64,000 bases of DNA. It comes from a virus (lineage: Duplodnaviria; Heunggongvirae; Uroviricota; Caudoviricetes). A program made the position numbers and the translations under genes. Of the stretch, positions 14,108-63,617 are shown in pieces. The DNA is taken from IMG/VR virus record IMGVR_UViG_2579778873_000001, positions 9,557-73,556 of that record; one strand, written 5' to 3'. Below the pieces are notes generated by a model. That model made no database searches, was not told the origin of the DNA, and worked only from the letters and a program-made list of their open reading frames with translations. How positions within the stretch are numbered: the first letter of the stretch is position 1; each line of letters begins with the position of its first letter.

Positions 14108-15769
14108 ATGAGTGAGGCAGAAGCCCGCCCGACTAACTTTATTCGTCAGATCATCGATGAAGATCTGGCAAGTGGTAAGCACACCACAGTACATACCCGT
14201 TTCCCGCCGGAACCGAATGGCTATCTGCATATTGGTCATGCGAAATCTATCTGCCTGAACTTCGGGATCGCCCAGGACTATAAAGGCCAGTGCAACCTGC
14301 GTTTCGACGACACTAACCCGGTAAAAGAAGATATCGAGTACGTCGAGTCGATTAAAAACGACGTTGAATGGTTAGGTTTTCACTGGTCTGGTAACGTCCG
14401 TTACTCCTCCGATTATTTTGATCAGCTCCACGCCTATGCTGTTGAACTGATCAACAAAGGCCTGGCGTATGTTGACGAACTGACGCCGGAACAGATCCGC
14501 GAATACCGCGGCACCCTGACGCAGCCGGGTAAAAACAGCCCGTACCGCGATCGCAGCGTTGAAGAGAACCTGGCGCTGTTCGAAAAAATGCGTGCCGGTG
14601 GTTTTGAAGAAGGTAAAGCCTGCCTGCGTGCGAAAATCGACATGGCGTCGCCGTTTATCGTGATGCGCGATCCGGTGCTGTACCGCATTAAGTTTGCTGA
14701 ACACCACCAGACTGGCAACAAGTGGTGCATCTACCCGATGTACGACTTCACCCACTGCATCAGCGATGCGCTGGAAGGTATTACGCACTCTCTGTGTACG
14801 CTTGAGTTCCAGGACAACCGTCGCCTGTACGACTGGGTGCTGGACAACATCACCATTCCTGTTCACCCGCGCCAGTACGAATTCTCGCGCCTGAATCTGG
14901 AATACACTGTGATGTCCAAGCGTAAGCTGAACCTGCTGGTGACCGACAAGCACGTTGAAGGCTGGGATGACCCGCGTATGCCGACCATTTCCGGTCTGCG
15001 TCGTCGTGGTTACACTGCGGCTTCTATTCGTGAGTTCTGCAAACGCATCGGCGTGACCAAGCAGGACAACACCATTGAGATGGCGTCGCTGGAATCCTGC
15101 ATCCGTGAAGATCTCAACGAAAATGCGCCGCGCGCAATGGCGGTTATCGATCCGGTGAAACTGGTTATCGAAAACTACCAGGGCGAAGGCGAAATGGTCA
15201 CCATGCCGAACCATCCGAACAAACCGGAAATGGGTAGCCGTCAGGTGCCGTTTAGCGGTGAGATTTGGATCGACCGCGCCGATTTCCGCGAAGAAGCTAA
15301 CAAGCAGTACAAACGTCTGGTGCTGGGTAAAGAAGTGCGTCTGCGTAATGCTTACGTCATTAAGGCTGAACGCGTGGAGAAAGATGCCGAAGGCAATATC
15401 ACCACCATCTTCTGTACCTACGATGCCGATACTTTAAGCAAAGATCCGGCAGATGGTCGTAAAGTGAAAGGCGTTATCCACTGGGTAAGCGCGGCCCATG
15501 CGCTGCCGGTTGAAATTCGCCTGTACGACCGTCTGTTCAGTGTACCGAACCCAGGTGCTGCGGATGATTTTCTGTCGGTGATTAACCCGGAATCGCTGGT
15601 GATCAAACAGGGCTTTGCTGAACCGTCGCTGAAAGAAGCGGTAGCTGGTAAAGCATTCCAGTTTGAGCGTGAAGGTTATTTCTGCCTCGACAGCCGCCAT
15701 TCTACGGCGGAAAAACCGGTATTTAACCGCACCGTTGGGCTGCGTGATACCTGGGCGAAGTTAGGTTAA
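14108..15769 (+). CDS. glnS: Glutaminyl-tRNA synthetase
   Basis: 553-aa ORF matching E. coli GlnS essentially end to end as recalled (HIGH motif region [17 protein letters not shown] motif); own leader and terminator. Confidence 0.95.
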
Positions 15770-15820: not shown

Positions 15821-18112
15821 CTTCATTATTGCAATTATATCGTTAGCAACTACACGTGTTGACGCCTTGCAGGAAACCGACCGTCTGGCTGCCATATGAT
15901 GTACTTTAAACCCGTTTCCTTCATATAGTTCACGGATGTTTGGCGCACCACTATTTGTAATCACTACCTTAGCGCCGCGCTGGTGGGCTTCCACCAATAG
16001 AGATACCAGCCGTTTCTGTTCGTCGAAACGGAAGCTATTTCCTGAATAACTGGTAAACCCTTCTGTATCCGGCAGCGGTTCATACGGCGGATCGCAAAAA
16101 ATCACATCGCCTTCACCAGCCGCCTCGATGACGCCAGCAAAGTCACCTGATACAAAGGACGTGTTTTTGAGTACGTCATCAGCCAAAAATGCCTCCATCT
16201 CTGCATGTGGGAAGTAGGGCGCTTTGTATTTGCCATACCCCACGTTGAACTCGCCATTTTGGTTGTACCGCGTTACGCCATTAAAACAGTGCCGATTAAG
16301 GTACAAAAAGGCGGCAGCATGATGTAGCTGGTCATACTTTCCTCTGTTAAATGCCTCACGCACTTCGAGGTAAGCGTCAGCGTTGTTGTAATTTTGGAAA
16401 AAACTATATGACAGCGTGACGAGCGAATGTCCTTCTCGCTGCAATGTCTGATAGAAGTTAATCAGGTCACCGTTAATATCATTAAGCAGGTTGTGGCGAA
16501 ATCCTGCATTCGTAAATACGGAACCGCCACCAACGAATGGTTCTATTAACCGCTTGCCGTGTGGTAGATGCTCAAGCACTGTAGGTAACTCTGAGAATTT
16601 ACCTCCTACCCATTTGAAGATCGGACGCTCATATTCATCCGGAGTCCGGAGTATTCTTGTGTAGGTAATGGTATTTATTGTTTTTGGCTGTTTAGCTTCC
16701 ACAGTCGCAAGAATGCAACACCCAATCCATTGCATAACAGGAACTGCCATGCTGTTGCCAATCGCTTTGTAACGCGGCCCGTCAGCAGCGAGCATCGCGG
16801 CCTCTTCTTCGCTTAAATCTGGATAGTGATTGCGAAGGTATGCCAGTTCATCTGAGGAAATTGTTTTACGCTTTTCCGTAGGGATCAACGTATGCCCATC
16901 AGGAAAACCTTGCAGCCTTTCACATTCGACAGGGGTAAGACGGCGAACAGCTACTTTTGCGTTTCTTGCTTCATAGCAAACGGCTGTTGGATTTTGAGCC
17001 ATTAGAGATGGTGAAGTATTCTTAGTTGCAGCATGTTGTGTACCGCTCATATGCTCAGGAAAAGCTAATGTAACAAGATGCTCATGGCTTTCTTGCTCAC
17101 GCGCCCGCAATGTACCATGCCCCTCTGACCAAAAACCTGCTCCTGTGCTGCTAAAAACGGCAAGGTCAGTGGCATCTTTAAAGTCTCTTGCCTTTACTGT
17201 CGATGCGGTTTCATCGTCAATATATTCCCCAAATGCCGCCATCCTGAAAGCGTTTACGGCTTTCGTCGATTTCATACCGGGGGGCATGTCAGCGTGTAGG
17301 CATGGATTTAGACTTTCGCCACTGATTGCAGCGCCATTTGCAATAATGGCGGAAGCGATTTCCTTCTTTTTTCGGCTCGGCGCAATATTCCGGCGCACGC
17401 CTTCGAACTCAAAAAGTATCGTTGCGGGATCGAGGTCTGTTCGAGCACTTGCGACAACAAACACGCGTCGGCGTCGTTGTGCCACTCCGAAGTATTGGGC
17501 ATCAAGGATTCTCCAGGCCACTTTTCGCTGCGGTCCATAAATACAACCACACTGCGGCCACTTTGGAGCATGGCAACTGGTTTTGACATCCCACCGCCAG
17601 AACGCGTTACTTTTTCGTGATTCAGGTCGAGCACCTGGTTCGAATGGCGCATCTTCTCCAGCCAATCCGGCAAGGAAACATCCGAAGGCGTTATCTGCCG
17701 ATGACAAGACTCCTGGGACATTTTCCCAGACGATAACGGCTGGTTTGAGAAATGACTCAGCCCGTTTGTCGTCAATTGCATTTGCAAGCTCCACATACTT
17801 TAAAGTTAGCGCGCCACGCTCATCATCAAGCCCACCACGTAATCCCGCGATACTGAATGCCTGACAAGGTGTTCCCCCGACGAGCACATCAGGGGATTCG
17901 ATTTCCCCAGCCAGGACTTTTTTGGCAAGTTTTGTCATATCGCCAAGGTTGGCGACATGGGGCCAGCGGTGCGCAAGAACGGCAGATGGAAAAGGCTCGA
18001 TTTCAGCAAACCACGCCGGACGCATACCCAACGGTTCCCAGGCAATGCTCGCTGCTTCAATTCCACTGCAAACAGAACCATATCTAAGGTTAACGTTCTG
18101 CTTCACCACCAA
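15818..18112 (-). CDS. dmt: Bifunctional DNA methyltransferase (N-terminal C5-cytosine, C-terminal Dam-like N6-adenine), Dmt-like
   Basis: C5-MTase motifs ([24 protein letters not shown]) in the N-terminal half; Dam-like FKWVGGK and DPPY in the C-terminal half; no restriction endonuclease gene nearby. Confidence 0.8.
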
Positions 18113-22406: not shown

Positions 22407-22709
22407 ATGACCAAAAAAATTAACATAAAGGATTTCAGGGATGCGTGGCTTGATGATTTTTTTGAATTTTCAACACCACATAGAAAGATACCTCCTGATA
22501 TTCATATGACATTGTCACGGAAGTTGGACATTATCAATGCCGCAACTACCTGTAAGGATTTAAGATCACCACCAGGTAATCGGTATGAGGAACTGTCAGG
22601 GAAGCTAAATGGCTATTCATCAGTAAGGGTGAATAAGCAATATAGGTTAATTTTTAAGTGGGTTAACGGAAAGGCCGAGGACTTGTATCTCGACCCTCAC
22701 AAATACTAA
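22407..22709 (+). CDS. higB: Type II toxin HigB (RelE/ParE superfamily)
   Basis: 100 aa; C-terminal signature PPGNRYEEL...VRVNKQYRLIFKW..DLYLDPHKY; toxin precedes antitoxin as in higBA. Confidence 0.8.
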   Translation: MTKKINIKDFRDAWLDDFFEFSTPHRKIPPDIHMTLSRKLDIINAATTCKDLRSPPGNRYEELSGKLNGYSSVRVNKQYRLIFKWVNGKAEDLYLDPHKY

Positions 22710-51285: not shown

Positions 51286-51678
51286 CTACCAGCGAGACAA
51301 ACGAACAACATGTTTCACTTTTGCGATCCACTGTCCGCGATAACTATTGATTACGGCCTGTGCCAGCTTCAAATTGGCTTCAAAATCAGCCTTACTACCA
51401 TCAGACTCCACCAGCATTCCGCCATCTATTTCTGGTAAACATAGATAATCCTGCTCAACCTGCAGCGGCATTGATGGCTCTCTGAATGGCGTTACTTGCT
51501 CTGCTTTCCAGCGAAATCTAACCCTCATCCCCCTGGTGGTCATTACCAGATAGCCTGTTATAGTGCTTTTATGGCCCACATCAGTACGCGTGGCATTGCA
51601 TGACACGATCTTACAGTTAGCGATAGACCACTCCATATTGGTGGCCTGTTGAGTGCTTAATTTGGTAGTCCCGTACAT
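51286..51678 (-). CDS. Hypothetical protein
   Basis: 130-aa ORF, ATGA-coupled to the upstream gene. Confidence 0.4.
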   Translation of the reverse strand: MYGTTKLSTQQATNMEWSIANCKIVSCNATRTDVGHKSTITGYLVMTTRGMRVRFRWKAEQVTPFREPSMPLQVEQDYLCLPEIDGGMLVESDGSKADFEANLKLAQAVINSYRGQWIAKVKHVVRLSRW

Positions 51679-52253
51679 CAGAAAGCCTCCCAGTCAGTCG
51701 CGATAATATCCACACCAGTTGCAAACCAGTCTGTCTGCGCCTGTAAATCACCATTCATCATTACCAGGCGAGGCATCACCATCACATCGCACCCTTCCAC
51801 AATATCGAATGCCTCTTCCGGCAAGAATTCGAAGAGCTTTTCTTTGCTGCCAATGCTGCCACGGAACATCGATATATAGCTCCCTTTAGGCCATGATGTC
51901 CGCCTGGCATCAAGCCCTTTCATCATCCAGTAAAAAGCCGAGGAAAAAGGGATATTCTTTTTGCCAATGATTACATTATTCGCTTCTGTGTACTTCAGGA
52001 ACTTAACTAACCTTACCATTGACTCGGATAACGCAACGTATGGCTCATGATTGATTGCTGACACGCTTACACCGTGCAATCCAACGCTTACCACTGTCAT
52101 ATCGCCGCTCTGTGCGGTTTCGATATTGACGCCTTTGCGAACTAATGAGGCGTAAAGTTCCTCTCGCTTTTGGGTCCAGCGTTCCTGCTTCCCTATGAAG
52201 TCACTCAAAATGAGATCTTCTTCTGCATATGCGTTATCGTTCGCCATTAACAT
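51678..52253 (-). CDS. Protein with C-terminal DUF2829-like domain (second copy in window)
   Basis: FYWMMKGLDARRTSWPKGSYISMF ... DWFATGVDIIATDWEAF parallels the DUF2829 start and end motifs; weaker than 43326..44027. Confidence 0.4.
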   Translation of the reverse strand: MLMANDNAYAEEDLILSDFIGKQERWTQKREELYASLVRKGVNIETAQSGDMTVVSVGLHGVSVSAINHEPYVALSESMVRLVKFLKYTEANNVIIGKKNIPFSSAFYWMMKGLDARRTSWPKGSYISMFRGSIGSKEKLFEFLPEEAFDIVEGCDVMVMPRLVMMNGDLQAQTDWFATGVDIIATDWEAF

Positions 52254-52707: not shown

Positions 52708-52783
52708 TGGTGGCCCCTACCGGACTTGAACCGGTGACCGTGCGATTATGAGTCGCCAGCTCTAACCACTGAGCTAAAGGGCC
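52708..52783 (-). tRNA. tRNA with CAU anticodon (ileX-like tRNA-Ile2, or Met)
   Basis: 76-nt cloverleaf read by hand: acceptor GGCCCTT/AGGGGCC, anticodon loop CTCATAA, T-loop TTCAAGT, encoded CCA; close to E. coli ileX as recalled. Confidence 0.8.
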
Positions 52784-52937
52784 AGATTACTGTTAATTCC
52801 GCTTACGCTTTTTGCCAGGACCGCGTAAGGCTTTTGCTGCTTGCTCGACCCCATATGCAACCACCAGCAGAAATAAAAATGTCCACCAAGGGTTCTTGTC
52901 GGCAAACGTCCAAAATTCCATCATGTTCTCTATTTGG

Positions 52938-53765
52938 TTATTTCACCGGAACAAACGGAACAGCGGTATTACTGGTCATATACTGCGGTAGCGTTCCGTT
53001 CCATTTGTTGATCGCTTCCAACTCCATAACGCCGGGGTTCTGGCGCAGAGCCTCACCGCGTAAACGAATGGCATCAGCTTCAGCCTGGGCTTTTGTGCGA
53101 ATGGCATCGGCCTGTCCGGCAGCTTCTGCGCGCAGCATGTTGGCTTCTGCTTCGCGTTGCTTGACTTCCTGCTCGCGTTGCAGAGTTTTCTGGTTCGCCG
53201 TGACTTTGGCATTAATGCTGTCGATAACGGTTGGCGGGTACTCCGGCTTGCCCACATATGAGAGGCTCATTACCTGAATACCGATGGGCGTCATTTCTTC
53301 CTGGATGTCTTTAAGAGCTGCATCCAGCAGTTCAGACTTGCCACCGTCGATAAATTTGTCGGTGGTCATTTTGCTGGCCAGTCGGTTAAGTGCGTCGGCA
53401 ATCTTCTGGCGCAGGTCGGTGTCGGTAATGTCATCCACGCCTTTGCGGTAGGTCTGAAATACAGTTGTGACTTTTGCCGGATCAACCTTGTAAGCTACAC
53501 CAATGTGGTAACCAATTGTTGTCCCGTCGCTCATTTGGAAGCTGAACGGATCATCATAGGTCTTCATTTGCTTAAAGGTCGGGAAGATATAAACTTCTGT
53601 GTTCCAGCCTGTCCAGTAGCGACCAACGCCAACTACTTCGCCGACACCTTTATCATCCCCCAGCTTATTTACTTTGATCCCTACATTGCCTGGTTCTACC
53701 CGGTCGCATCCGGTCAGACATAAAGAACCAAAAATAATCGCTGCACTAATCAACGTTTTTTTCAT
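52938..53765 (-). CDS. SPFH/band-7 family lipoprotein (Plp-like)
   Basis: Lipobox LTGC after a signal peptide; C-terminal Ala/Glu/Arg-rich coiled-coil typical of SPFH proteins. Confidence 0.6.
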   Translation of the reverse strand: MKKTLISAAIIFGSLCLTGCDRVEPGNVGIKVNKLGDDKGVGEVVGVGRYWTGWNTEVYIFPTFKQMKTYDDPFSFQMSDGTTIGYHIGVAYKVDPAKVTTVFQTYRKGVDDITDTDLRQKIADALNRLASKMTTDKFIDGGKSELLDAALKDIQEEMTPIGIQVMSLSYVGKPEYPPTVIDSINAKVTANQKTLQREQEVKQREAEANMLRAEAAGQADAIRTKAQAEADAIRLRGEALRQNPGVMELEAINKWNGTLPQYMTSNTAVPFVPVK

Positions 53766-53983
53766 TAATCAATTTCCTGGATTTTTTTGCGAAAAAAGAC
53801 TACTGCAAAAGCCGGGTAAATGAGCGCGAGAAGGACTCCCAACAATACAAGTATTGTGCTGTCAGATGAGATCATATTTGGCAAAAGCCAAACATACAGA
53901 ACCAGTGACACAATCAAACAGAGGACGACATAAATATATAGCCGCACCCATAGCGTTCGACATTTGTTCGGATTGTTCTGCAT
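53765..53983 (-). CDS. Small integral membrane protein (Upl-like)
   Basis: 72 aa with two hydrophobic helices; coupled to the lipoprotein gene. Confidence 0.45.
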   Translation of the reverse strand: MQNNPNKCRTLWVRLYIYVVLCLIVSLVLYVWLLPNMISSDSTILVLLGVLLALIYPAFAVVFFRKKIQEID

Positions 53984-54246
53984 CCTCTCACTCCATTATT
54001 TAACGAATAAAAAAGCTGCGGTGCCTGGTGCCTCCAGGTGACGTTAACCAGTTAACAATTAACGCCGGGATGTTTGATTTAACCACTAATAAGGATTGTT
54101 TTAACTGTTCCGCGTGCGCTTAGCCGCATTCACCGCAATGGTAAGAGCACTTGGCTGGCTGGGCGGCGATGACGCCTGTACGCATTTGGTGATCCGGTTC
54201 TGCTTCCGGCATTCGCTTAATTAGCCAAATACTCTTAACGTTGCGC

Positions 54247-54332
54247 TGGCGGAGAGTAATGGAATCGAACCATCATCGCTTGCGCAATGGGACGGTTTTC
54301 AAGACCGCTTGAGCACCATGCTCCCTACTCTC
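54247..54332 (-). tRNA. tRNA-like element with Ser-type anticodon loop (UGA); non-canonical, possibly degenerate
   Basis: Acceptor GGAGAGT/ACTCTCC plus G and CCA, anticodon arm CGGT-CTTGAAA-ACCG, long variable hairpin with GCAA loop, T-loop TTCGATT; but 5-nt D-loop and A at position 8. Confidence 0.3.
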
Positions 54333-54474
54333 CGGCCGTTGTGGTGGCCGGTACTGAATCTCCGGCATACGGTGCAGCCAATTAGGACTACGGACGATCA
54401 CCGCTCGCGAAAGGGAAGATTTGCGGCCGCATTTCCCTAACATCCAAGAAAGCTATCGCATCAGTCTGCGAATC

Positions 54475-54574
54475 CACCACAACGTTGAGAACACTGGTTG
54501 TCACGCTGCCTCGCGACATTTATTCATAGATTGGGATATGATCCCGTTACGCCAATGTTCTCAACGTTGTGGTG
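54475..54574. repeat. 19-bp perfect inverted repeat flanking a 62-nt loop
   Basis: caccacaacgttgagaaca (54475-54493) and its reverse complement (54556-54574); right arm runs into a 12-nt copy of the tRNA-Thr 3' end. Confidence 0.5.
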
Positions 54575-54798
54575 CCGGTTACGGTTCCGGCCAGGCCTCT
54601 TCCTCAACGGGGTGTTCTCCATACGGACTACCGTTTATTGGTCGTTCCTGCGGTTTATGTTGTGAAGCCAGATGCTTATCTTCTGGTTGCTTCAAAGAGC
54701 TGCACTTCATCACAACGGTAAGGGTACTTCGTAGGGATTCGAACCCTCTGCCAAGCACGGCGATCTCCGACGTCGCAAAATACCCTTACCTGTTGTGT

Positions 54799-54874
54799 TG
54801 GTGCCGGTTAACGGACTCGAACCGCTGACATCCTGCTTACAAGGCAGGCGCTCTACCAACTGAGCTAAACCGGC
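54799..54874 (-). tRNA. tRNA-Thr (UGU)
   Basis: 76-nt cloverleaf: acceptor GCCGGTT/AACCGGC, anticodon loop CTTGTAA, T-loop TTCGAGT, CCA encoded. Confidence 0.85.
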
Positions 54875-54876
54875 AT

Positions 54877-54952
54877 TGGCGATGGTGGATGGATTTGAAC
54901 CATCGACCCGTTGATTAACAGTCAACCGCTCTAACCGCTGAGCTACACCATC
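54877..54952 (-). tRNA. tRNA-Asn (GUU)
   Basis: 76-nt cloverleaf: acceptor GATGGTG/CACCATC, anticodon loop CTGTTAA, T-loop TTCAAAT, CCA encoded; 2 nt from tRNA-Thr. Confidence 0.85.
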
Positions 54953-58019: not shown

Positions 58020-58466
58020 TTAATCAAGATTTACATATTCCGTGATAGCTTTTATGGCTTCATCGGCACTGCGCGCCTCAAAGCAGTAATAGCCTGCTTC
58101 CGTGAGGCGAGTCATCCAGACGAGCTGTTCGGGAGTCAGACGGTTTCTCCCGTGCTTCATCTCAATGCGCATTCCGTGATACCCACCACGAGCAAGGTCA
58201 ATAGAAAGGTCCGGATAGCCCTTCTTCTGACCTTCTGCCACCATCTTAATGGCTGTCCTTTTGCCTCTCAGGCCGCCGTTCGGTGTTGAGTGTGTGTGCT
58301 CATACACGTATCGCATGTTGCGATACAGCCAATCCAGAACGCGAACCTGTTCGTAATGTTCGTAATTCCGTTTTAATAAGTCAGGATTTCTTTCTAACTC
58401 TCTCAGTGCAGCAGCGTGCGGGGATATTTCAGAATACGCACTATGATGCCTGCGTCTTCGCATCAA
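58020..58466 (-). CDS. VRR-NUC domain nuclease (PD-(D/E)xK superfamily)
   Basis: 148 aa with GYPDLSIDL ... RIEMKHGRN arrangement typical of VRR-NUC; operator overlaps its start. Confidence 0.55.
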   Translation of the reverse strand: MMRRRRHHSAYSEISPHAAALRELERNPDLLKRNYEHYEQVRVLDWLYRNMRYVYEHTHSTPNGGLRGKRTAIKMVAEGQKKGYPDLSIDLARGGYHGMRIEMKHGRNRLTPEQLVWMTRLTEAGYYCFEARSADEAIKAITEYVNLD

Positions 58467-58634: not shown

Positions 58635-61600
58635 TTAACTATTCTGTGTCGGGGTCATTATTGAAATTATTGTCCCACCGGCCCCACCGCCAGCACCGAA
58701 AAACGTCTCGCTGTTCGAGTATGCCTTGCAGCCGCCCCCTCCGCCACCGCCGCCCGTTATTGTGACCCTGATCCGTTTTGTTCCTGGGGTTGGGGTATAC
58801 GTACCTGATGAAGTGAAAACCTGGGTATTCACCAAACGCCCAACATATCCGCTTGAATCGCTCAGGCCAAGGTTAGCAGCAGTTAAAGTAATATTTGCAG
58901 AACCATCAAACTTAACACCGTTGATAGTGCGTGCAGTCTGTAGTTTCGTTGCGGTTGCGGCATTACCGGTAGTGCTCTGATTACCTGCTTTATTCACGCC
59001 CGGCAGGTCGATATTGGCACTACCATCGAATGACACTCCGCCTATTGTGCGTGCTGTTTGCAGTTTTGTTGCAGTTGCAGCATTGCCGGTAGTGCTCTGA
59101 TTACCTGCTTTATTCACGCCCGGCAGGTCGATATTGGCACTACCATCGAACGACACGCCGCCGATTGTGCGTGCAGTCTGTAGTTTCGTTGCGGTTGCGG
59201 CATTACCGGTAGTGCTCTGATTACCTGCTTTATTCACGCCCGGCAGGTCGATATTGGCACTACCATCGAATGACACTCCGCCGATTGTGCGTGCTGTTTG
59301 CAGTTTTGTTGCAGTTGCAGCATTACCGTTCAAACTACCATTGATGCCGCCAGTAACATTGAGTCCATTACCGATCGTAACAGTACCATTGGCGTTGTTA
59401 ATAATAAGCGGCCTTAAATTATTATAGGTTCCCAGGCTGTTACCCGAATCGGTCAACATGAAAAATGTGTGTGAACCATCGTTTCGGATAAAGAATCCGT
59501 AGTTTCCGTAGGCAATGCGCTGACCATTCGCCGATTTTGAAATGATCTCACCAGTAGCCGTTAAACCGCCTTTGAGATTTCCTCCGGTTATTGGGAATGC
59601 GCCGACATCCGTGGCGGTCGGTTTAATGTGCGAACTGTAAATGACATATACAGTTCCATCTGTCAGGCCTGTTGGTTTATCCGCTGTATAAGATGGTGAT
59701 GTATGAATCGTTACGCTGGCGTTCCTGGTATAATCCCACTGGATATTTACACCCGTGGCGTAATTACCTATTTCAACATAAACATCATAGGTATCACCGG
59801 ATGTATTCACCCATGCAAAATTAGTAAATCCAACCGATGTCCGTCGCCATAACGCACCGGTAAGACCTTTTGGATTCCCATTTCCCGCACGAAGAACAAG
59901 TTCAGATATACCAGCCTGCATAGGGGAGTTAACATTATATCCAGCACCACCAATCAGGCTTATGTAAACCATAGAACTGGCCTGTGGCATGGTTACAGTT
60001 GCCAGCTTGAACCATCCAGCACCACCACTAAAAGACATTGTTGTTGAGTTGATCGTGCCTATAGACCTTGGAGTTAGCTCAATGTTTTTAGAACCGTCAA
60101 ACGACACCCCATTTATAGTTCTCGCGGTTTGTAACTTGGTCGCTGTAGCCGCGTTACCGGATGTATTCTGATTACCCGCAACGTTAACACCAGGTAAATT
60201 AATATTCGCAGTACCATCAAAGCTAACTCCGCCGATAGTTCTTGCCGTCTGTAGTTTTGTAGCAGTTGCTGCATTGCCAGTTGTATTCTGATTGCCAGTG
60301 GCATTCACACCAGGAATGGAGTCCCTTGATGTATATACCTGCGCCCACGCTGACCATGCCGCATCAGCGTAATCTCTTCGGGAGCGAATGAAAACCGGCG
60401 CATGTGCACCGCTCGTACCACTCCAGCCAATAAGCAACTCGCCCTCACCAGCAGCACTCGCACCTTTCATGTGCAATACGTTGCCATACGCGGTCGGGTA
60501 GCTATTGTTGTACGCCTCATACATCTGCAATCCAGTAGCAGCACCTTGTGTTGTATCGGTGAGCGCAGTAACACGCCCTCTGGACGTGATTGTTGGTATC
60601 GAAATGTTCGCAGAACCATCAAACTTAACACCGTTGATTGTGCGGGCTGTTTGCAGTTTTGTAGCGGTTGCAGCATTACCGGTAGTGCTCTGATTACCTG
60701 CTTTATTCACGCCCGGCAGGTCGATATTGGCACTACCATCGAATGACACTCCACCTATTGTGCGTGCTGTTTGCAGTTTCGTAGCGGTTGCAGCATTGCC
60801 GGTAGTGCTCTGATTACCTGCTTTATTCACGCCCGGCAGGTCGATATTGGCACTACCATCGAACGACACTCCGCCGATTGTGCGTGCTGTTTGCAGTTTT
60901 GTGGCGGTGGATGCATTACCTGTCAAAGATCCACTAAGAGCCACGGCACGAAGAGACTTAACACTTACATCCTGACCCCATCCGGAAACAACAACCTGAC
61001 TCCACGCTGCCCAGCTTCCATTAACAACAAAGCGAACGTATATACGTTTTGTGTCGTTGCTGATCAGCGTTTGCATGTTCGCATAATCCGAAGCAGAAAC
61101 TTTGCGAGTCGACTCTACACGGAGCAAAAAGTTACCGGTTACACCGTCAGGCTTGTTGGTGATATTTGCACCACCTCCAAAGGTTGGACAACAATAATAT
61201 TTAATTGCCCCGACATCTGAGATGATGGTCAGGTTGTTAAGATCAACCGTCTGGCCGCCAATGTCTTCCGGATCGATGGCTCCTGCTATCCCGGCACTGA
61301 ATGTAGCAGCGGCTGAAAACGCTGTCTTACCTTTGAAAGTCTGTTGAGAACTCCAGGTATTAGCTGTGCTCAACAGGGGGATCTTTTCGCCGCTGGTTCC
61401 GATTTCTCTTAAACCAAGGTATTGGATAACAGCCAGTGTGCTTGTTTTAGCCAGGATATCGCGACCGACTGACGTTAAATCAGTCTGGGAAACAGTGTCT
61501 GTACCGGTAAAGTACGGCAATTTATTTGCGCCTGTCGCAAGCCCAGCAAGCGCGGTTAAAGTTGCATCAAGTGGCTGTTTGCCTGCCAGCGCATTTGTCA

Positions 61601-63080
61601 TTGTTGTCGCAAAGTTCGGGTCATTGCCCAGTGCTGCTGCAAGCTCATTCAGGGTATCAAGAGCTTCAGGTGATGAGCCGACCAATGCAGAGATAGCAGC
61701 TCTTACATAAGCGGTCGTAGCAATCTGCGTGTTATTCGTACCCTGTGCAGCGGTAGGCGCAGTAGGTATTCCCGTTAATGCAGGACTTGCTAAAGGAGCT
61801 TTAAGAGCCAGAGCATTGTTGATAGTTTTGCTGAAATTCGGGTCGTTATTGATCGCAGCCGCTATTTCTTTAAGCGTATCCAGTGTGCCAGGTGCACCGT
61901 TGATAAGTGCCGTTATAGCTGCCTTAACAAAGGCTGTATTTGCAATCTGCGTGCTATTTGTGCCTTGTGAGGCCGTAGGCACTGTCGGCGTACCGGTGAA
62001 CGCCGGGCTTGCCAAAGGAGCTTTAAGAGCCAGAGCATTGTTGATAGTTGTGCTGAAATTCGGGTCGTTATTGATCGCAGCCGCTATTTCTTTAAGCGTA
62101 TCCAGTGTGCCAGGTGCACCGTTGATAAGTGCCGTTATAGCTGCCTTAACAAAGGCTGTATTTGCAATCTGCGTGCTATTTGTGCCTTGTGAGGCCGTAG
62201 GCACTGTCGGCGTACCGGTGAACGCCGGGCTTGCCAAAGGAGCTTTAAGAGCCAGAGCATTGTTGATAGTTGTGCTGAAATTCGGGTCGTTATTGATCGC
62301 AGCCGCTATTTCTTTAAGCGTATCCAGTGTGCCAGGTGCACCGTTGATAAGTGCCGTTATAGCTGCCTTAACAAAGGCTGTATTTGCGATCTGCGTGCTA
62401 TTTGTGCCTTGTGAGGCCGTAGGCACTGTCGGCGTACCTGACAGATGCGGACTATTGAGCGGAGCTTTTGTATCAACCAAATCATGAAGAGTTTTGACAG
62501 CCAGAGGTGTAGCCGCTTTTCTTTCTTCTGTACTGCTTATTTCATTAGAGAATTCGACACCAACAGCACGGTTAACTCGGTATTTAAGCACAATCATTTC
62601 TTTAGTCACAGCCGTTGCGCCGCTAGGCACGATAACTCGACATAATTCAATTTGATTCTGCCCAATAGTATTGTCCCTACGCGCGTAAATTCTTGCAGCA
62701 CTGACAGAAGATGCGCTCTCTACCTGTGTCGTTTTTACACCATGTTCAAAATTGGCTTCCAGCACAATAATGTTGGTAGCCCCAGCCTTTACCGAGACAG
62801 TCACATCTTCTATTTGCTGAATGGATATCTGAACATTATTTACATCTACTGAAGCAGCCCCTTTACCTTCTGAGTTTTCAGAAGTTATACGGACGCTCAA
62901 CCCTGTGCCGGGAACTGGTTCAAATCCACAGTAAAAGCCCGGCAAAACAATATTTTTAAGTTTTCTGTTAAGAGCAGAACTACTATAGAGTTCGAAATAT
63001 TGAACATCAGCAAGCAACGGCTGTGAGACACCAGAGGATAGTGTCATTATGTTGTTCGTTTTATCAGCACCCATAATCAA
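58635..63080 (-). CDS. Tail fiber protein (1481 aa) with modular repeats and Gly-rich C-terminus
   Basis: Three 74-aa repeats near the N-terminus (NTAFVKAAITALINGAPGTLDTLKEIAAAINNDPNF...), many 40-aa repeats (TARTIGGVSFDGSANIDLPGVNKAGNQSTTGNAATATKLQ), tail GGGGGGGGCKAYSNSETFFGAGGGAGG. Confidence 0.8.
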   Translation of the reverse strand: MIMGADKTNNIMTLSSGVSQPLLADVQYFELYSSSALNRKLKNIVLPGFYCGFEPVPGTGLSVRITSENSEGKGAASVDVNNVQISIQQIEDVTVSVKAGATNIIVLEANFEHGVKTTQVESASSVSAARIYARRDNTIGQNQIELCRVIVPSGATAVTKEMIVLKYRVNRAVGVEFSNEISSTEERKAATPLAVKTLHDLVDTKAPLNSPHLSGTPTVPTASQGTNSTQIANTAFVKAAITALINGAPGTLDTLKEIAAAINNDPNFSTTINNALALKAPLASPAFTGTPTVPTASQGTNSTQIANTAFVKAAITALINGAPGTLDTLKEIAAAINNDPNFSTTINNALALKAPLASPAFTGTPTVPTASQGTNSTQIANTAFVKAAITALINGAPGTLDTLKEIAAAINNDPNFSKTINNALALKAPLASPALTGIPTAPTAAQGTNNTQIATTAYVRAAISALVGSSPEALDTLNELAAALGNDPNFATTMTNALAGKQPLDATLTALAGLATGANKLPYFTGTDTVSQTDLTSVGRDILAKTSTLAVIQYLGLREIGTSGEKIPLLSTANTWSSQQTFKGKTAFSAAATFSAGIAGAIDPEDIGGQTVDLNNLTIISDVGAIKYYCCPTFGGGANITNKPDGVTGNFLLRVESTRKVSASDYANMQTLISNDTKRIYVRFVVNGSWAAWSQVVVSGWGQDVSVKSLRAVALSGSLTGNASTATKLQTARTIGGVSFDGSANIDLPGVNKAGNQSTTGNAATATKLQTARTIGGVSFDGSANIDLPGVNKAGNQSTTGNAATATKLQTARTINGVKFDGSANISIPTITSRGRVTALTDTTQGAATGLQMYEAYNNSYPTAYGNVLHMKGASAAGEGELLIGWSGTSGAHAPVFIRSRRDYADAAWSAWAQVYTSRDSIPGVNATGNQNTTGNAATATKLQTARTIGGVSFDGTANINLPGVNVAGNQNTSGNAATATKLQTARTINGVSFDGSKNIELTPRSIGTINSTTMSFSGGAGWFKLATVTMPQASSMVYISLIGGAGYNVNSPMQAGISELVLRAGNGNPKGLTGALWRRTSVGFTNFAWVNTSGDTYDVYVEIGNYATGVNIQWDYTRNASVTIHTSPSYTADKPTGLTDGTVYVIYSSHIKPTATDVGAFPITGGNLKGGLTATGEIISKSANGQRIAYGNYGFFIRNDGSHTFFMLTDSGNSLGTYNNLRPLIINNANGTVTIGNGLNVTGGINGSLNGNAATATKLQTARTIGGVSFDGSANIDLPGVNKAGNQSTTGNAATATKLQTARTIGGVSFDGSANIDLPGVNKAGNQSTTGNAATATKLQTARTIGGVSFDGSANIDLPGVNKAGNQSTTGNAATATKLQTARTINGVKFDGSANITLTAANLGLSDSSGYVGRLVNTQVFTSSGTYTPTPGTKRIRVTITGGGGGGGGCKAYSNSETFFGAGGGAGGTIISIMTPTQNS
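58925..59330. repeat. Near-perfect 120-bp tandem repeats (block 1) inside the tail fiber gene
   Basis: Units start at about 58921, 59041, 59161, 59281, differing at a few positions. Confidence 0.8.
60600..60900. repeat. Near-perfect 120-bp tandem repeats (block 2) inside the tail fiber gene
   Basis: Same unit family as block 1 with diverged copies at 60100-60300; the blocks flank a unique central segment. Confidence 0.8.
61640..62450. repeat. Near-perfect 222-bp tandem repeats in the tail fiber 5' region
   Basis: gccgctatttctttaagcgtatccagtgtgcc recurs at about 61858, 62080, 62302. Confidence 0.8.
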
Positions 63081-63523
63081 CCCTCAACTTGCTCGATTGT
63101 CATGAGAATACTGTAACGTTTACCTTTATAGAGGGTGTCTTGCTGGGTGCAAAGCACAGCAAAAGCCTGTTCCTCAGCATCAACAAGCACAAGCGTGTTA
63201 AAGGCGTAAGGCGTGTTCTCCGGCATTCTTTCTTGAGGGAAGGCTGCATTGATAGTGATAATCCCATCCACACTGGACAATATCAGATCGGACACAGCAA
63301 ACTGTTGAGCGTTACTCAATTTAAAATTGAGTGGAATGTCCGCTATATTCCAGCCTCCTGCACCATTAGCAGTTACCAGACTAGATTTGCACCAATACGC
63401 CTTAGAGATAACAAAACGCGCACCTTTGCCGATCGCCGACTCAGCGCGGCGTGAATAATAGTAGGAAAGCAATTGCGCCTTATACAGGCGGTTACCATCT
63501 CTTACCTTTAAATTTTCAGCCAT
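63077..63523 (-). CDS. Tail protein upstream of tail fiber, unassigned
   Basis: 148-aa ORF whose stop overlaps the tail fiber start (ATGA). Confidence 0.45.
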   Translation of the reverse strand: MAENLKVRDGNRLYKAQLLSYYYSRRAESAIGKGARFVISKAYWCKSSLVTANGAGGWNIADIPLNFKLSNAQQFAVSDLILSSVDGIITINAAFPQERMPENTPYAFNTLVLVDAEEQAFAVLCTQQDTLYKGKRYSILMTIEQVEG

Positions 63524-63617
63524 ACGAACATAGCCCCTTCATAAGCAATGAACCAAAGGAGAGTATGCTCAGTTTGTGATTTCCGTTGTTCTTCCCCCAA
63601 ATGCGGGGGAAGAATTA

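What the first reader, a model, noticed from the sequence alone, without database searches (positions are those of the whole stretch)
58635..63080. Tail fiber built from near-identical DNA repeats, with a Gly-rich C-terminus
The 1481-aa gene has three copies of a 222-bp unit (61640-62450) and two blocks of a 120-bp unit (58925-59330, 60600-60900) that are almost identical at the DNA level. That implies recent duplication and a capacity for recombination to change fiber length. No inversion system (cin-like gene, inverted alternative C-terminal segment, downstream assembly chaperone) is visible; downstream is a VRR-NUC operon. The final 40 aa contain GGGGGGGGC...GAGGGAGG, which I cannot assign.
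Basis: seen in the sequence. Interest (0 to 1): 0.5.

Follow-up and report, generated by a model that had tools for sequence, protein, structure and literature searches.

The report
Truncated P1/D6-type repeat-built tail fibre gene
This is the well-known tail-fibre gene S of a P1/D6-type phage-plasmid of E. coli, built from repeat units already annotated in phage P1, and its odd glycine-rich end is the stump of a receptor-binding tip cut off by a roughly 22-kb deletion that has probably crippled the prophage.

Summary
The repeats are real. There are three near-identical 222-bp units plus a diverged fourth, and nine 120-bp units in three blocks, five of them near-identical. The gene is the homologue of P1/D6 tail-fibre gene S in a D6-like plasmid prophage (source: GCA_000687045.1, contig JMGS01000074.1, 73,556 bp).

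- **222-bp unit:** it is P1's annotated "repeated element b". The window has b1-b1-b1-b2, where P1 has b1-b2.
- **Copy number:** it varies among 127 homologues, with b from 1 to 4 copies and the 40-aa unit from 4 to 10 copies across three blocks.
- **Gly-rich end:** it covers only profile positions 2-49 of 226 of Pfam PF21722 (Gly_rich_2). This is a Pam3-gp24-like TNF-like/glycine-rich receptor-binding tip. Complete relatives run 134 aa further.
- **Truncation:** the ORF stops at a TAA formed at a deletion junction (58636/58637, 2-bp microhomology). The junction joins S to DNA that lies about 21.6-23.4 kb away in closed relatives.
- **What is missing:** the rest of the tip, the fibre chaperone, the cin remnant, and the lysis, dar and portal genes.
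- **What remains:** a single relic cix site at 61404-61427.

Verdict: ordinary, known biology, in a probably defective phage-plasmid.

The parts
63077..63523 (-). gpR homologue (tail-fibre structure/assembly), directly upstream of S as in P1 and D6
   Evidence: 95.3% identical to D6 R over 149 aa; PF26881 Phage_P1_tail_fiber_R; phrog_2032
58635..63074 (-). Tail-fibre gene S, truncated allele. 1479 aa from the ATG at 63074, or 1481 aa from the TTG at 63080. Residue numbers in the other rows use the 1481-aa frame.
   Evidence: 80.5% identity to D6 S over the first 402 aa; collinear with the S genes of closed D6/P1-like plasmids; exact protein WP_435577173.1, seen on one contig
62466..63080 (-). 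N-terminal domain (aa 1-205), D6-type. Presumed baseplate attachment (inferred, not tested).
   Evidence: Homology to the D6 S N-terminus; phrog_5454 tail fibre, aa 17-202
61800..62465 (-). Three near-identical 222-bp / 74-aa units (aa 206-427), of the P1 'repeated element b1' type
   Evidence: TRF; pairwise 93-99.5% DNA identity; same register as the b1 element annotated in P1 record M81956.1 and 87-90% identical to it
61578..61799 (-). Fourth, diverged 222-bp unit (aa 428-501), of the P1 'repeated element b2' type
   Evidence: 62-66% identical to units 1-3; 92% (204 of 222) identical to P1 b2
61404..61427 (+). cix crossover site marking the Sc/Sv boundary (it encodes ...VIQYLGLRE...). It is the only one in the window, so it is a relic without a partner or an invertase.
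   Evidence: Exact match to the site at D6's annotated cixR; 0 matches in 100 shuffles; no second site even with up to 6 mismatches allowed
60555..60914 (-). 120-bp / 40-aa repeat block A (3 units, aa 723-842; the last unit is diverged)
   Evidence: TRF; unit table
60033..60272 (-). 120-bp / 40-aa repeat block B (2 diverged units, aa 937-1016)
   Evidence: Motif positions and identities of 50-72%
59325..59600 (-). T4 gp34 / Mu S-type trimerisation domain (aa 1161-1252)
   Evidence: PF21446 Gp34_trimer, E = 5.9e-27; PDB 5YVQ Mu tail fibre S, E = 8.6e-26; 4UXE/5NXH T4 gp34, E about 1e-19
58842..59321 (-). 120-bp / 40-aa repeat block C (4 units, aa 1254-1413; three near-identical, the last diverged)
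   Evidence: TRF; unit table
58638..58811 (-). Stump of the glycine-rich receptor-binding tip domain (PF21722 Gly_rich_2). Only profile positions 2-49 of 226 are present.
   Evidence: hmmscan of the last 83 aa: 25.8 bits against a cut-off of 24.3. Complete relatives cover positions 2-224 and run 134 aa further to ...GICIIEEFA.
58635..58637 (-). Deletion junction and stop codon. Homology to the VRR-NUC side runs up to 58637 and homology to S starts at 58636, an overlap of 2 bp (TA). The TAA is assembled from both sides.
   Evidence: Three-way alignment; breakpoints in BLAST
58020..58466 (-). VRR-NUC ORF. It is the left flank of the deletion and not part of the fibre operon. In relatives it lies more than 21 kb from S.
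   Evidence: PF08774; positions in closed plasmids

Best explanation
The ORF is gene S, the tail fibre of a D6/P1-family plasmid prophage of E. coli.

It is a modular fibre; that it forms a trimer is inferred from solved relatives. In order, it contains:
- a D6-type N-terminal domain;
- four 74-aa 'b' units (P1's b1 three times, then b2);
- the cix site that marks the border between the constant and variable parts;
- a variable part in which globular modules, including a gp34/Mu-S-type trimerisation domain, are separated by arrays of a 40-aa repeat;
- a glycine-rich TNF-like tip of the Pam3 gp24 type, which in solved relatives binds the receptor.

The near-identical 222-bp and 120-bp units are substrates for unequal homologous recombination. 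That recombination adds or removes whole in-frame units, changing shaft length. Between dispersed blocks it deletes, duplicates or swaps whole modules. The evidence here is comparative; the recombination mechanism is inferred.

In this copy, an illegitimate recombination event with 2-bp microhomology deleted about 21.6-23.4 kb. It fused codon 1481 of S to an intergenic site next to the VRR-NUC cluster and created an immediate TAA. It removed 134 aa of the tip, the downstream fibre chaperone, the cin remnant, the lysis, dar and immI regions, and the portal gene.

The fibre is therefore almost certainly non-functional, and the element is a defective phage-plasmid that survives as a plasmid (inferred).
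For: Identity and context:
- The window is collinear with the closed plasmid pIso00270_02, except for a jump from record position 22441 to 93280.
- R, S, gene 16 and bplA are in the P1/D6 order.
- The D6 cixR sequence is present in the gene.

Repeats:
- TRF and in-register identities.
- P1's own annotation of 222-bp elements b1 and b2, in the same register.
- Among 127 homologues there are 42 different architectures. b occurs 1-4 times; the r blocks occur 2-5, 0-3 and 1-5 times. Fused forms such as krrrrr[g34] and krr[GLY] also occur.
- Protein lengths form 40-aa ladders.
- The window has exactly 2 x 222 bp more than its nearest backbone relative.
- Copy numbers are reproduced without gaps in closed plasmids.

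Tip:
- PF21722 matches full-length relatives and the window stump.
- A family profile hits the Pam3 fibre 7YPX at E = 1.2e-19.
- The AF2 model of a complete tip has pLDDT 95.5. Its best PDB fold matches are Pam3 7YPX (TM 0.71), then the Bxb1 tail tip and the ALK/LTK glycine-rich domains.
- Pam3 gp24 function and chaperone dependence: PMC9608196.

Truncation:
- The three-way alignment places the junction at 58636/58637, with the stop formed there.
- Nearly all of the 110 Gly-tip homologues run on to ...GICIIEEFA; two are themselves partial.
- In 8289 family representatives the domain almost always ends at the protein's C-terminus.
- A Tfa-like chaperone ORF follows S in relatives.
- cin, U, lydA and lydB are absent from the window.
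- Contents of the missing arc.

Precedent for deleted or defective D6- and P1-like plasmids: PMC6799933 and PMC6906374.
Against: - The junction is known from one draft assembly only, and one contig carries the exact protein.
- It is absent from 20,395 complete E. coli records, 72,556 plasmids, and the genome and viral contig collections.
- I could not inspect reads, or the first 9.5 kb of the contig, to prove circularity.
- No experiment shows that the truncated fibre is inactive.
- The role of repeat number in fibre length is inferred from the architecture, not measured.
Confidence: 0.8

Rival explanations
1. The junction at 58636/58637 is a chimeric assembly join. The real plasmid is about 94 kb, with a complete S gene, chaperone and lysis/portal region.
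For: - Only one draft contig carries this protein.
- No other record has the junction.
- S genes often break contigs in draft assemblies: many cluster members are partial.
Against: - The breakpoint lies in unique sequence on both sides, not in a repeat, with only 2 bp of overlap. Graph assemblers do not join such sequences unless reads span them (general knowledge).
- The contig is 73.6 kb. That is about what a 92-94 kb relative minus 21-23 kb gives.
- Similar deletions are documented in D6- and P1-like plasmids.
Confidence: 0.15
2. The gene is an intact, functional fibre with a novel short glycine-rich C-terminus that needs neither a chaperone nor inversion.
For: The ORF is long and open with a proper stop. 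The stump still scores just above the Pfam cut-off.
Against: - Only positions 2-49 of 226 of the domain are present.
- In the AF2 model the C-terminal strand (residues 210-216) and about five of nine strands are lost.
- Essentially all complete homologues run 134 aa further.
- The stop codon is made by the junction.
- Portal and lysis genes are missing from the element.
Confidence: 0.03
3. The loss was a programmed or site-specific event: Cin acting on cix and a pseudo-cix, or an IS-mediated deletion.
For: Cin-family systems and IS elements do remodel this region in relatives. One cix site is present.
Against: - The intact cix site is 2.8 kb away from the junction.
- Neither flank of the junction resembles cix, and no IS or IS end sits at the junction.
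- Only a 2-bp TA is shared between the two sides.
Confidence: 0.02

Closest known systems
Bacteriophage P1 gene S (gpS; constant part Sc, variable part Sv, with repeated elements b1/b2 and cix), and phage D6 gene 35
   Same: - Position after R.
- D6-type N-terminus (80.5% identity).
- 222-bp b elements in the same register.
- An identical cix sequence at the Sc/Sv border.
- P1/D6 backbone synteny.
   Different: - b1 is triplicated (b1-b1-b1-b2 against b1-b2).
- Sv is much longer, with nine 40-aa repeats and a gp34-type domain.
- The tip is glycine-rich rather than P1/D6-type.
- There is no U, Sv', U', second cix or cin, and the C-terminus is truncated.
Cyanophage Pam3 tail fibre gp24 (PDB 7YPX/7YFW); more distantly the Bxb1 tail-tip proteins, S16 gp38 and the ALK/LTK glycine-rich domains
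   Same: - Complete relatives of the window's tip share PF21722.
- The family profile hits 7YPX at E = 1.2e-19.
- They share the fold (TM 0.71, rmsd 3.2 A): TNF-like strands carrying stacked glycine-rich motifs.
- gp24 needs a cognate chaperone, gp25, and a Tfa-like ORF follows S in the window's relatives.
   Different: - Pam3 gp24 is a minimal 280-aa fibre. Here the tip caps a fibre of about 1,600 aa.
- In the window only the first fifth of the domain survives.
T4 gp34 proximal long tail fibre and Mu tail fibre S (PDB 4UXE/5NXH, 5YVQ)
   Same: aa 1161-1252 match their trimerisation domain (PF21446; E from 1e-19 to 1e-26).
   Different: Only this module is shared. The rest of the architecture is of the P1/D6 type.
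Defective D6-like and P1-like plasmid prophages, for example pSO21_75 ('p75', lacking 15 kb of tail-fibre, lysis and antirestriction genes), pJIE250-3 and pTZ20_1P
   Same: The same region is lost and the plasmid functions are kept. cin is truncated or the C-segment incomplete (PMC6799933, PMC6906374).
   Different: Those deletions are associated with IS26 or other IS elements. Here there is no IS, only a 2-bp microhomology. The deletion is larger (about 22 kb) and leaves most of S in place.

Membership tests
P1/D6 tail-fibre gene S | Lies directly after gene R in the 16-R-S order of the P1/D6 tail module | tested here: met
   R at 63077-63523 is 95% identical to D6 R, with gene 16 upstream. 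Same order as in closed relatives.
P1/D6 tail-fibre gene S | N-terminal (Sc) homology to gpS | tested here: met
   80.5% identity to D6 S over 402 aa
P1/D6 tail-fibre gene S | 222-bp repeated elements b1/b2 in Sc | tested here: met
   Same register as the elements annotated in M81956.1. Units 1-3 are 87-90% identical to b1; unit 4 is 92% identical to b2.
P1/D6 tail-fibre gene S | cix crossover site at the Sc/Sv border | tested here: met
   Exact D6 cixR sequence at 61404-61427
P1/D6 tail-fibre gene S | Complete C-terminal receptor-binding part followed by a tail-fibre assembly chaperone (U or Tfa) | tested here: not met
   The ORF ends 134 aa short of all complete relatives. No U or U' homologue is in the window. 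The chaperone ORF is present in relatives.
Cin/C-segment invertible host-range switch | Serine invertase gene (cin) next to the segment | tested here: not met
   tblastn with D6 Cin finds nothing in 64 kb. Gly-tip relatives keep only a 44-aa remnant.
Cin/C-segment invertible host-range switch | Two inverted cix sites flanking alternative Sv/U and Sv'/U' cassettes | tested here: not met
   There is only one cix. The only D6 Sv' hits are to the repeats inside S itself.
Pfam PF21722 Gly_rich_2 (Pam3 gp24-type glycine-rich tip) | Score at or above the gathering threshold | tested here: met
   The last 83 aa score 25.8 bits against a cut-off of 24.3. The full 1481-aa protein gave no hit in the whole-protein scan.
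Pfam PF21722 Gly_rich_2 (Pam3 gp24-type glycine-rich tip) | Complete domain (about 190-226 positions) reaching the protein's C-terminus | tested here: not met
   Only profile positions 2-49 of 226 are present. Relatives cover positions 2-224, and the domain ends at the C-terminus in nearly all of the 150 listed representatives.
Pfam PF21446 Gp34_trimer | Profile match above threshold, supported by solved homologues | tested here: met
   94.9 bits against a cut-off of 27; 5YVQ and 4UXE hits
D6-like plasmid prophage | RepB replicon, ParM partition, glnS, and the phage morphogenesis and packaging modules in D6 order | tested here: met
   Collinear at 94-99.8% with pIso00270_02 from repB through parM, glnS, the tail genes, pacA/B and the tRNAs. 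glnS is a hallmark of the group (PMC6799933).
D6-like plasmid prophage | Complete set of virion and lysis genes (portal, holin/lysozyme, fibre chaperone) | tested here: not met
   The arc that holds them in relatives is absent between 58637 and 58636. lydA and lydB are not found. About 9.5 kb of the contig lies outside the window but corresponds to repB-sit-bplA-16 in relatives.

The most novel reading that the evidence does not exclude
In P1/D6-type phage-plasmids whose Cin switch has decayed, the conserved 120-bp and 222-bp units may act as selected in-frame recombination linkers. They flank every module of the fibre, so general recombination would give a second, inversion-independent way to vary fibre length, duplicate or delete modules and swap receptor-binding tips at high frequency within a lineage.

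Points in favour:
- There are 42 architectures among 127 alleles.
- The window allele is a mosaic.
- A near-identical allele carries a duplicated 572-aa module.

These fit the idea but do not show that the rate is high or that the arrangement is adaptive.
Probability: 0.3. Interest if true: 0.4.

Novelty: already known. Interest (0 to 1): 0.15.

Why it matters
It matters mainly for annotation and interpretation:
- The "unassignable" Gly-rich end and the "missing" inversion system are both explained by one deletion in a known gene family.
- The element should be treated as a probably defective phage-plasmid, not as a fibre of new design.
- The comparative result is a clear, quantifiable example of repeat-mediated modular evolution of receptor-binding proteins: copy-number ladders at every repeat array, fused and duplicated modules, and tip swaps. 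It could guide fibre engineering.
- Conceptually, however, it extends what has been known for P1, T-even and P2-type fibres for decades.

Tried and rejected
- **Junction searches:** a 28-mer across the junction gave 0 hits in genome contigs and in viral contigs. A 601-bp junction query found no record covering both sides in E. coli genomes or plasmids. Independent confirmation of the junction was therefore not obtained.
- **NCBIfam:** no family matched the window protein or two full-length relatives.
- **Spurious Pfam hit:** Acyl-CoA_ox_N falls inside the b units (0 significant stretches, helical low-complexity sequence). I judged it spurious.
- **Contig circularity:** I tried to reach the contig's first 9.5 kb through a neighbouring protein. 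That protein occurs in 11,292 blocks of the collection and the source contig was not among the places shown.
- **Papers:** the P1 genome paper PMC523184 is not held. Two paper calls failed on term length.
- **Site-specific or IS-mediated deletion:** considered and rejected. There is no cix-like sequence and no IS at the breakpoints.
- **The 252-aa + strand ORF (61729-62487):** considered and rejected as a gene. It lies entirely within the antisense of the 222-bp array and has no support.
- **Single-sequence PDB search with the tip:** it gave only E = 0.17 to Pam3. The link became significant only with a family profile.

Full report
**1. Observation**

The ORF 58635..63080 (-) exists and gives 1481 aa from a TTG start. 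The ATG two codons in gives 1479 aa. That form is the exact RefSeq protein WP_435577173.1, seen on a single contig: GCA_000687045.1 JMGS01000074.1, 73,556 bp. The window is the last 64 kb of that contig.

Tandem Repeats Finder reports three arrays:
- period 222, 3.2 copies, 61720-62438, 95% matches
- period 120, 3.4 copies, 58923-59328
- period 120, 2.4 copies, 60636-60920

In register:
- 74-aa / 222-bp units occupy aa 206-279, 280-353 and 354-427. They are 93-99.5% identical in DNA, and units 2 and 3 differ by one base.
- A fourth unit, aa 428-501, is only 62-66% identical to the first three.
- There are nine 40-aa / 120-bp units in three blocks. Five are 92-99% identical in DNA and encode the same peptide; nearly all their differences are synonymous.

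It is not an assembly artefact. Window 59023-63600 aligns without gaps at 98.5% to the closed plasmid pB20159_2. Window 58636-62024 aligns at 96.7% to a closed plasmid of strain A_5.

**2. What the gene is**

The window belongs to a D6/P1-type phage-plasmid of E. coli. It is collinear at 94-99.8% with the closed 94.2-kb plasmid pIso00270_02, through repB, parM, glnS, the tail and baseplate genes, pacA/B and a tRNA cluster.

The ORF follows the gpR homologue, which is 95% identical to D6 R. Its first 402 aa are 80.5% identical to D6 tail fibre S. The annotated order in D6 and closed relatives is sit-pmgA-bplA-16-R-S-U-(U'-S')-cin-lydA-lydB-dar.

A perfect copy of the sequence at D6's cixR lies inside the gene at 61404-61427, with none expected by chance. 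This divides the protein into a constant part Sc (aa 1 to about 555) and a variable part Sv. The 222-bp repeats lie in Sc and all the 120-bp repeats lie in Sv.

**3. The repeats are known elements and their number varies**

The GenBank record of the P1 tail-fibre operon (M81956.1) annotates two 222-bp "repeated elements", b1 and b2, in Sc. They are in exactly the register found here. Window units 1-3 are b1-type (87-90% identical to P1 b1) and unit 4 is b2-type (92% identical). The window therefore has b1-b1-b1-b2 where P1 has b1-b2.

Among 120 database homologues plus six alleles from fetched records and the window allele, I found 42 architectures:
- b units occur 1-4 times.
- Block A of the 40-aa unit occurs 2-5 times, block B 0-3 times and block C 1-5 times.
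- Protein lengths form 40-aa ladders, for example 1245/1285/1325/1365/1405 and 1434/1474/1514.
- Fused forms occur, such as k-rrrrr-[gp34] and bbb|cix|k-rr-[Gly] (1060 aa). They look like in-frame deletions between dispersed blocks.
- One near-identical allele (P0272, 99.6% over 1392 aa) carries a duplicated 572-aa module.

Against its nearest backbone relative, the window has exactly two extra 222-bp units. The window allele is also a mosaic. It follows pB20159_2 (b x4, Gp53-like tip) down to block C. It then follows the Gly-tip alleles, at 99.7% to p2017-03-3CC_3 over the last 315 nt.

Its stated refutation (invariant copy number, or an artefact) fails.

**4. Other modules**

- aa 1161-1252 are a T4 gp34 / Mu S-type trimerisation domain (PF21446, E = 5.9e-27; PDB 5YVQ, E = 8.6e-26; 4UXE/5NXH).
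- Phage_fiber_2 (PF03406) matches aa 176-208, at the junction of the N-terminal domain and the first b unit.

**5. The Gly-rich end**

Full-length relatives carry Pfam PF21722 (Gly_rich_2) over their last 190 aa or so, covering profile positions 2-224 of 226. The window's last 83 aa match the same model, but only at positions 2-49 (25.8 bits; cut-off 24.3).

The family is large: 8289 representatives at E of 1e-3 or better. The domain almost always ends at the protein's last residue.

The links to solved structures are as follows:
- A profile of 74 members hits the cyanophage Pam3 tail fibre (PDB 7YPX/7YFW) at E = 1.2e-19.
- Pam3 gp24 itself scores above the PF21722 cut-off.
- An AlphaFold2 model of a complete tip, identical to the window over the shared 83 aa, has pLDDT 95.5 and pTM 0.90.
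- Its best PDB fold matches are Pam3 7YPX (TM 0.71, rmsd 3.2 A), then the Bxb1 tail-tip proteins, then the ALK/LTK glycine-rich domains.

In Pam3 this TNF-like plus glycine-rich module is the distal, receptor-recognising tip, and it needs a cognate chaperone (PMC9608196).

In the window's relatives a 136-144-aa Tfa-like ORF directly follows S. RefSeq calls it "incomplete", but an ORF with its own start is present. After it comes a 44-aa cin remnant.

**6. Why the gene ends there**

Homology to the VRR-NUC side of relatives runs up to 58637. Homology to S starts at 58636. The two share only "TA". The TAA at 58635-58637 is assembled from both sides, so the fibre ends at ...TQNS. Nearly all of the 110 Gly-tip homologues continue YPVTIGAGG... 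for 134 more residues, to ...GICIIEEFA.

In closed relatives the two sides are far apart. They are 23.4 kb apart in pIso00270_02 and 21.6 kb apart in p2_035125, which has the same kind of tip.

The missing arc holds the following:
- the rest of S and the chaperone
- alternative fibre cassettes or the cin remnant
- holin and lydB
- the darA operon
- the portal gene
- icd and ant
- a lysozyme-like gene
- the 6.8-kb SNF2 (darB-like) gene
- olxA

None of cin, U, U', lydA or lydB is found in the window. Neither flank carries a cix-like sequence or an IS. The event therefore looks like illegitimate recombination.

The contig length of 73.6 kb fits a relative of about 92-94 kb minus this arc. Deleted, defective D6- and P1-like plasmids are documented, as is frequent decay of cin and the C-segment (PMC6799933, PMC6906374). 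In the Gly-tip lineage the switch had already decayed: there is one cix and a cin pseudogene in four closed plasmids.

**7. Caveat**

The junction is seen in this one draft assembly only. I could not examine reads. I put about 0.15 on a chimeric join. The unique-sequence breakpoint, the 2-bp overlap and the fitting contig size all argue for a real deletion.

**8. Verdict**

This is a known gene family (P1/D6 gpS) with known repeat elements and a known tip fold. This copy is truncated by a deletion that probably left a defective plasmid prophage. The repeat-number variation is a tidy comparative result but not a new principle. Interest is low.

Noticed in passing
window 61404-61427: A perfect cix crossover site (identical to the site at D6's annotated cixR) survives inside S. 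No invertase gene and no partner site exist in the 64 kb, so it is a molecular fossil of the Cin switch.
   Followed up: yes
L001 5799-5822; L008 46435-46458; L007 1367-1390: The closed relatives pB20159_2 and pIso00270_02 carry a second class of cix-like site (TTCTCCCAAACCAAGGTATGCGAG) close to the 3' end of S. pB20159_2 also has an intact recombinase gene and several extra fibre and chaperone cassettes. This suggests a multi-segment, shufflon-like tip switch in those plasmids.
   Followed up: partly
L009 6188-6622 (-), and the equivalent ORFs in L002, L004 and L005: RefSeq marks the tail-fibre assembly gene after Gly-tip S genes as 'incomplete, missing N-terminus'. However, an ORF of 136-144 aa with its own start is present and overlaps the S stop. 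It may be a complete chaperone with a different N-terminal domain, as in Pam3 gp25.
   Followed up: partly
protein P0272 (E. coli 1-182-04_S1_C1, contig 94,580 bp): This allele is 99.6% identical to the window's S over 1392 aa. It carries a second copy of a 572-aa module (window aa 716-1287) and runs off its contig. It is either a large module duplication through the dispersed 120-bp repeats or a repeat-driven misassembly.
   Followed up: partly
window 52708-54952: Four tRNA genes lie on the phage-plasmid: CAT anticodon (called Met here, Ile in RefSeq relatives), Ser-TGA, Thr-TGT and Asn-GTT.
   Followed up: no
window 51678-52253 (-): A 191-aa ORF with the Pfam Tad2-like domain. Relatives annotate it as a Thoeris anti-defence Tad2 family protein.
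   Followed up: no
window 14108-15769 (+): A full-length glutaminyl-tRNA synthetase gene (glnS) on the plasmid. It is reported as a hallmark of D6-like plasmid prophages.
   Followed up: no
window 1057/1058: The relative pIso00270_02 has an IS200/IS605 tnpA-tnpB insertion (record 77818-79566) that the window lacks. The window, in turn, carries about 1.4 kb at 16649-18089 that the relative lacks, where the relative's DNA adenine methylase gene is partial.
   Followed up: no
window 61729-62487 (+): A 252-aa ORF lies on the strand opposite the 222-bp array. It is itself repetitive and lies wholly within the array, so it is most likely a by-product of the repeats and not a gene.
   Followed up: partly
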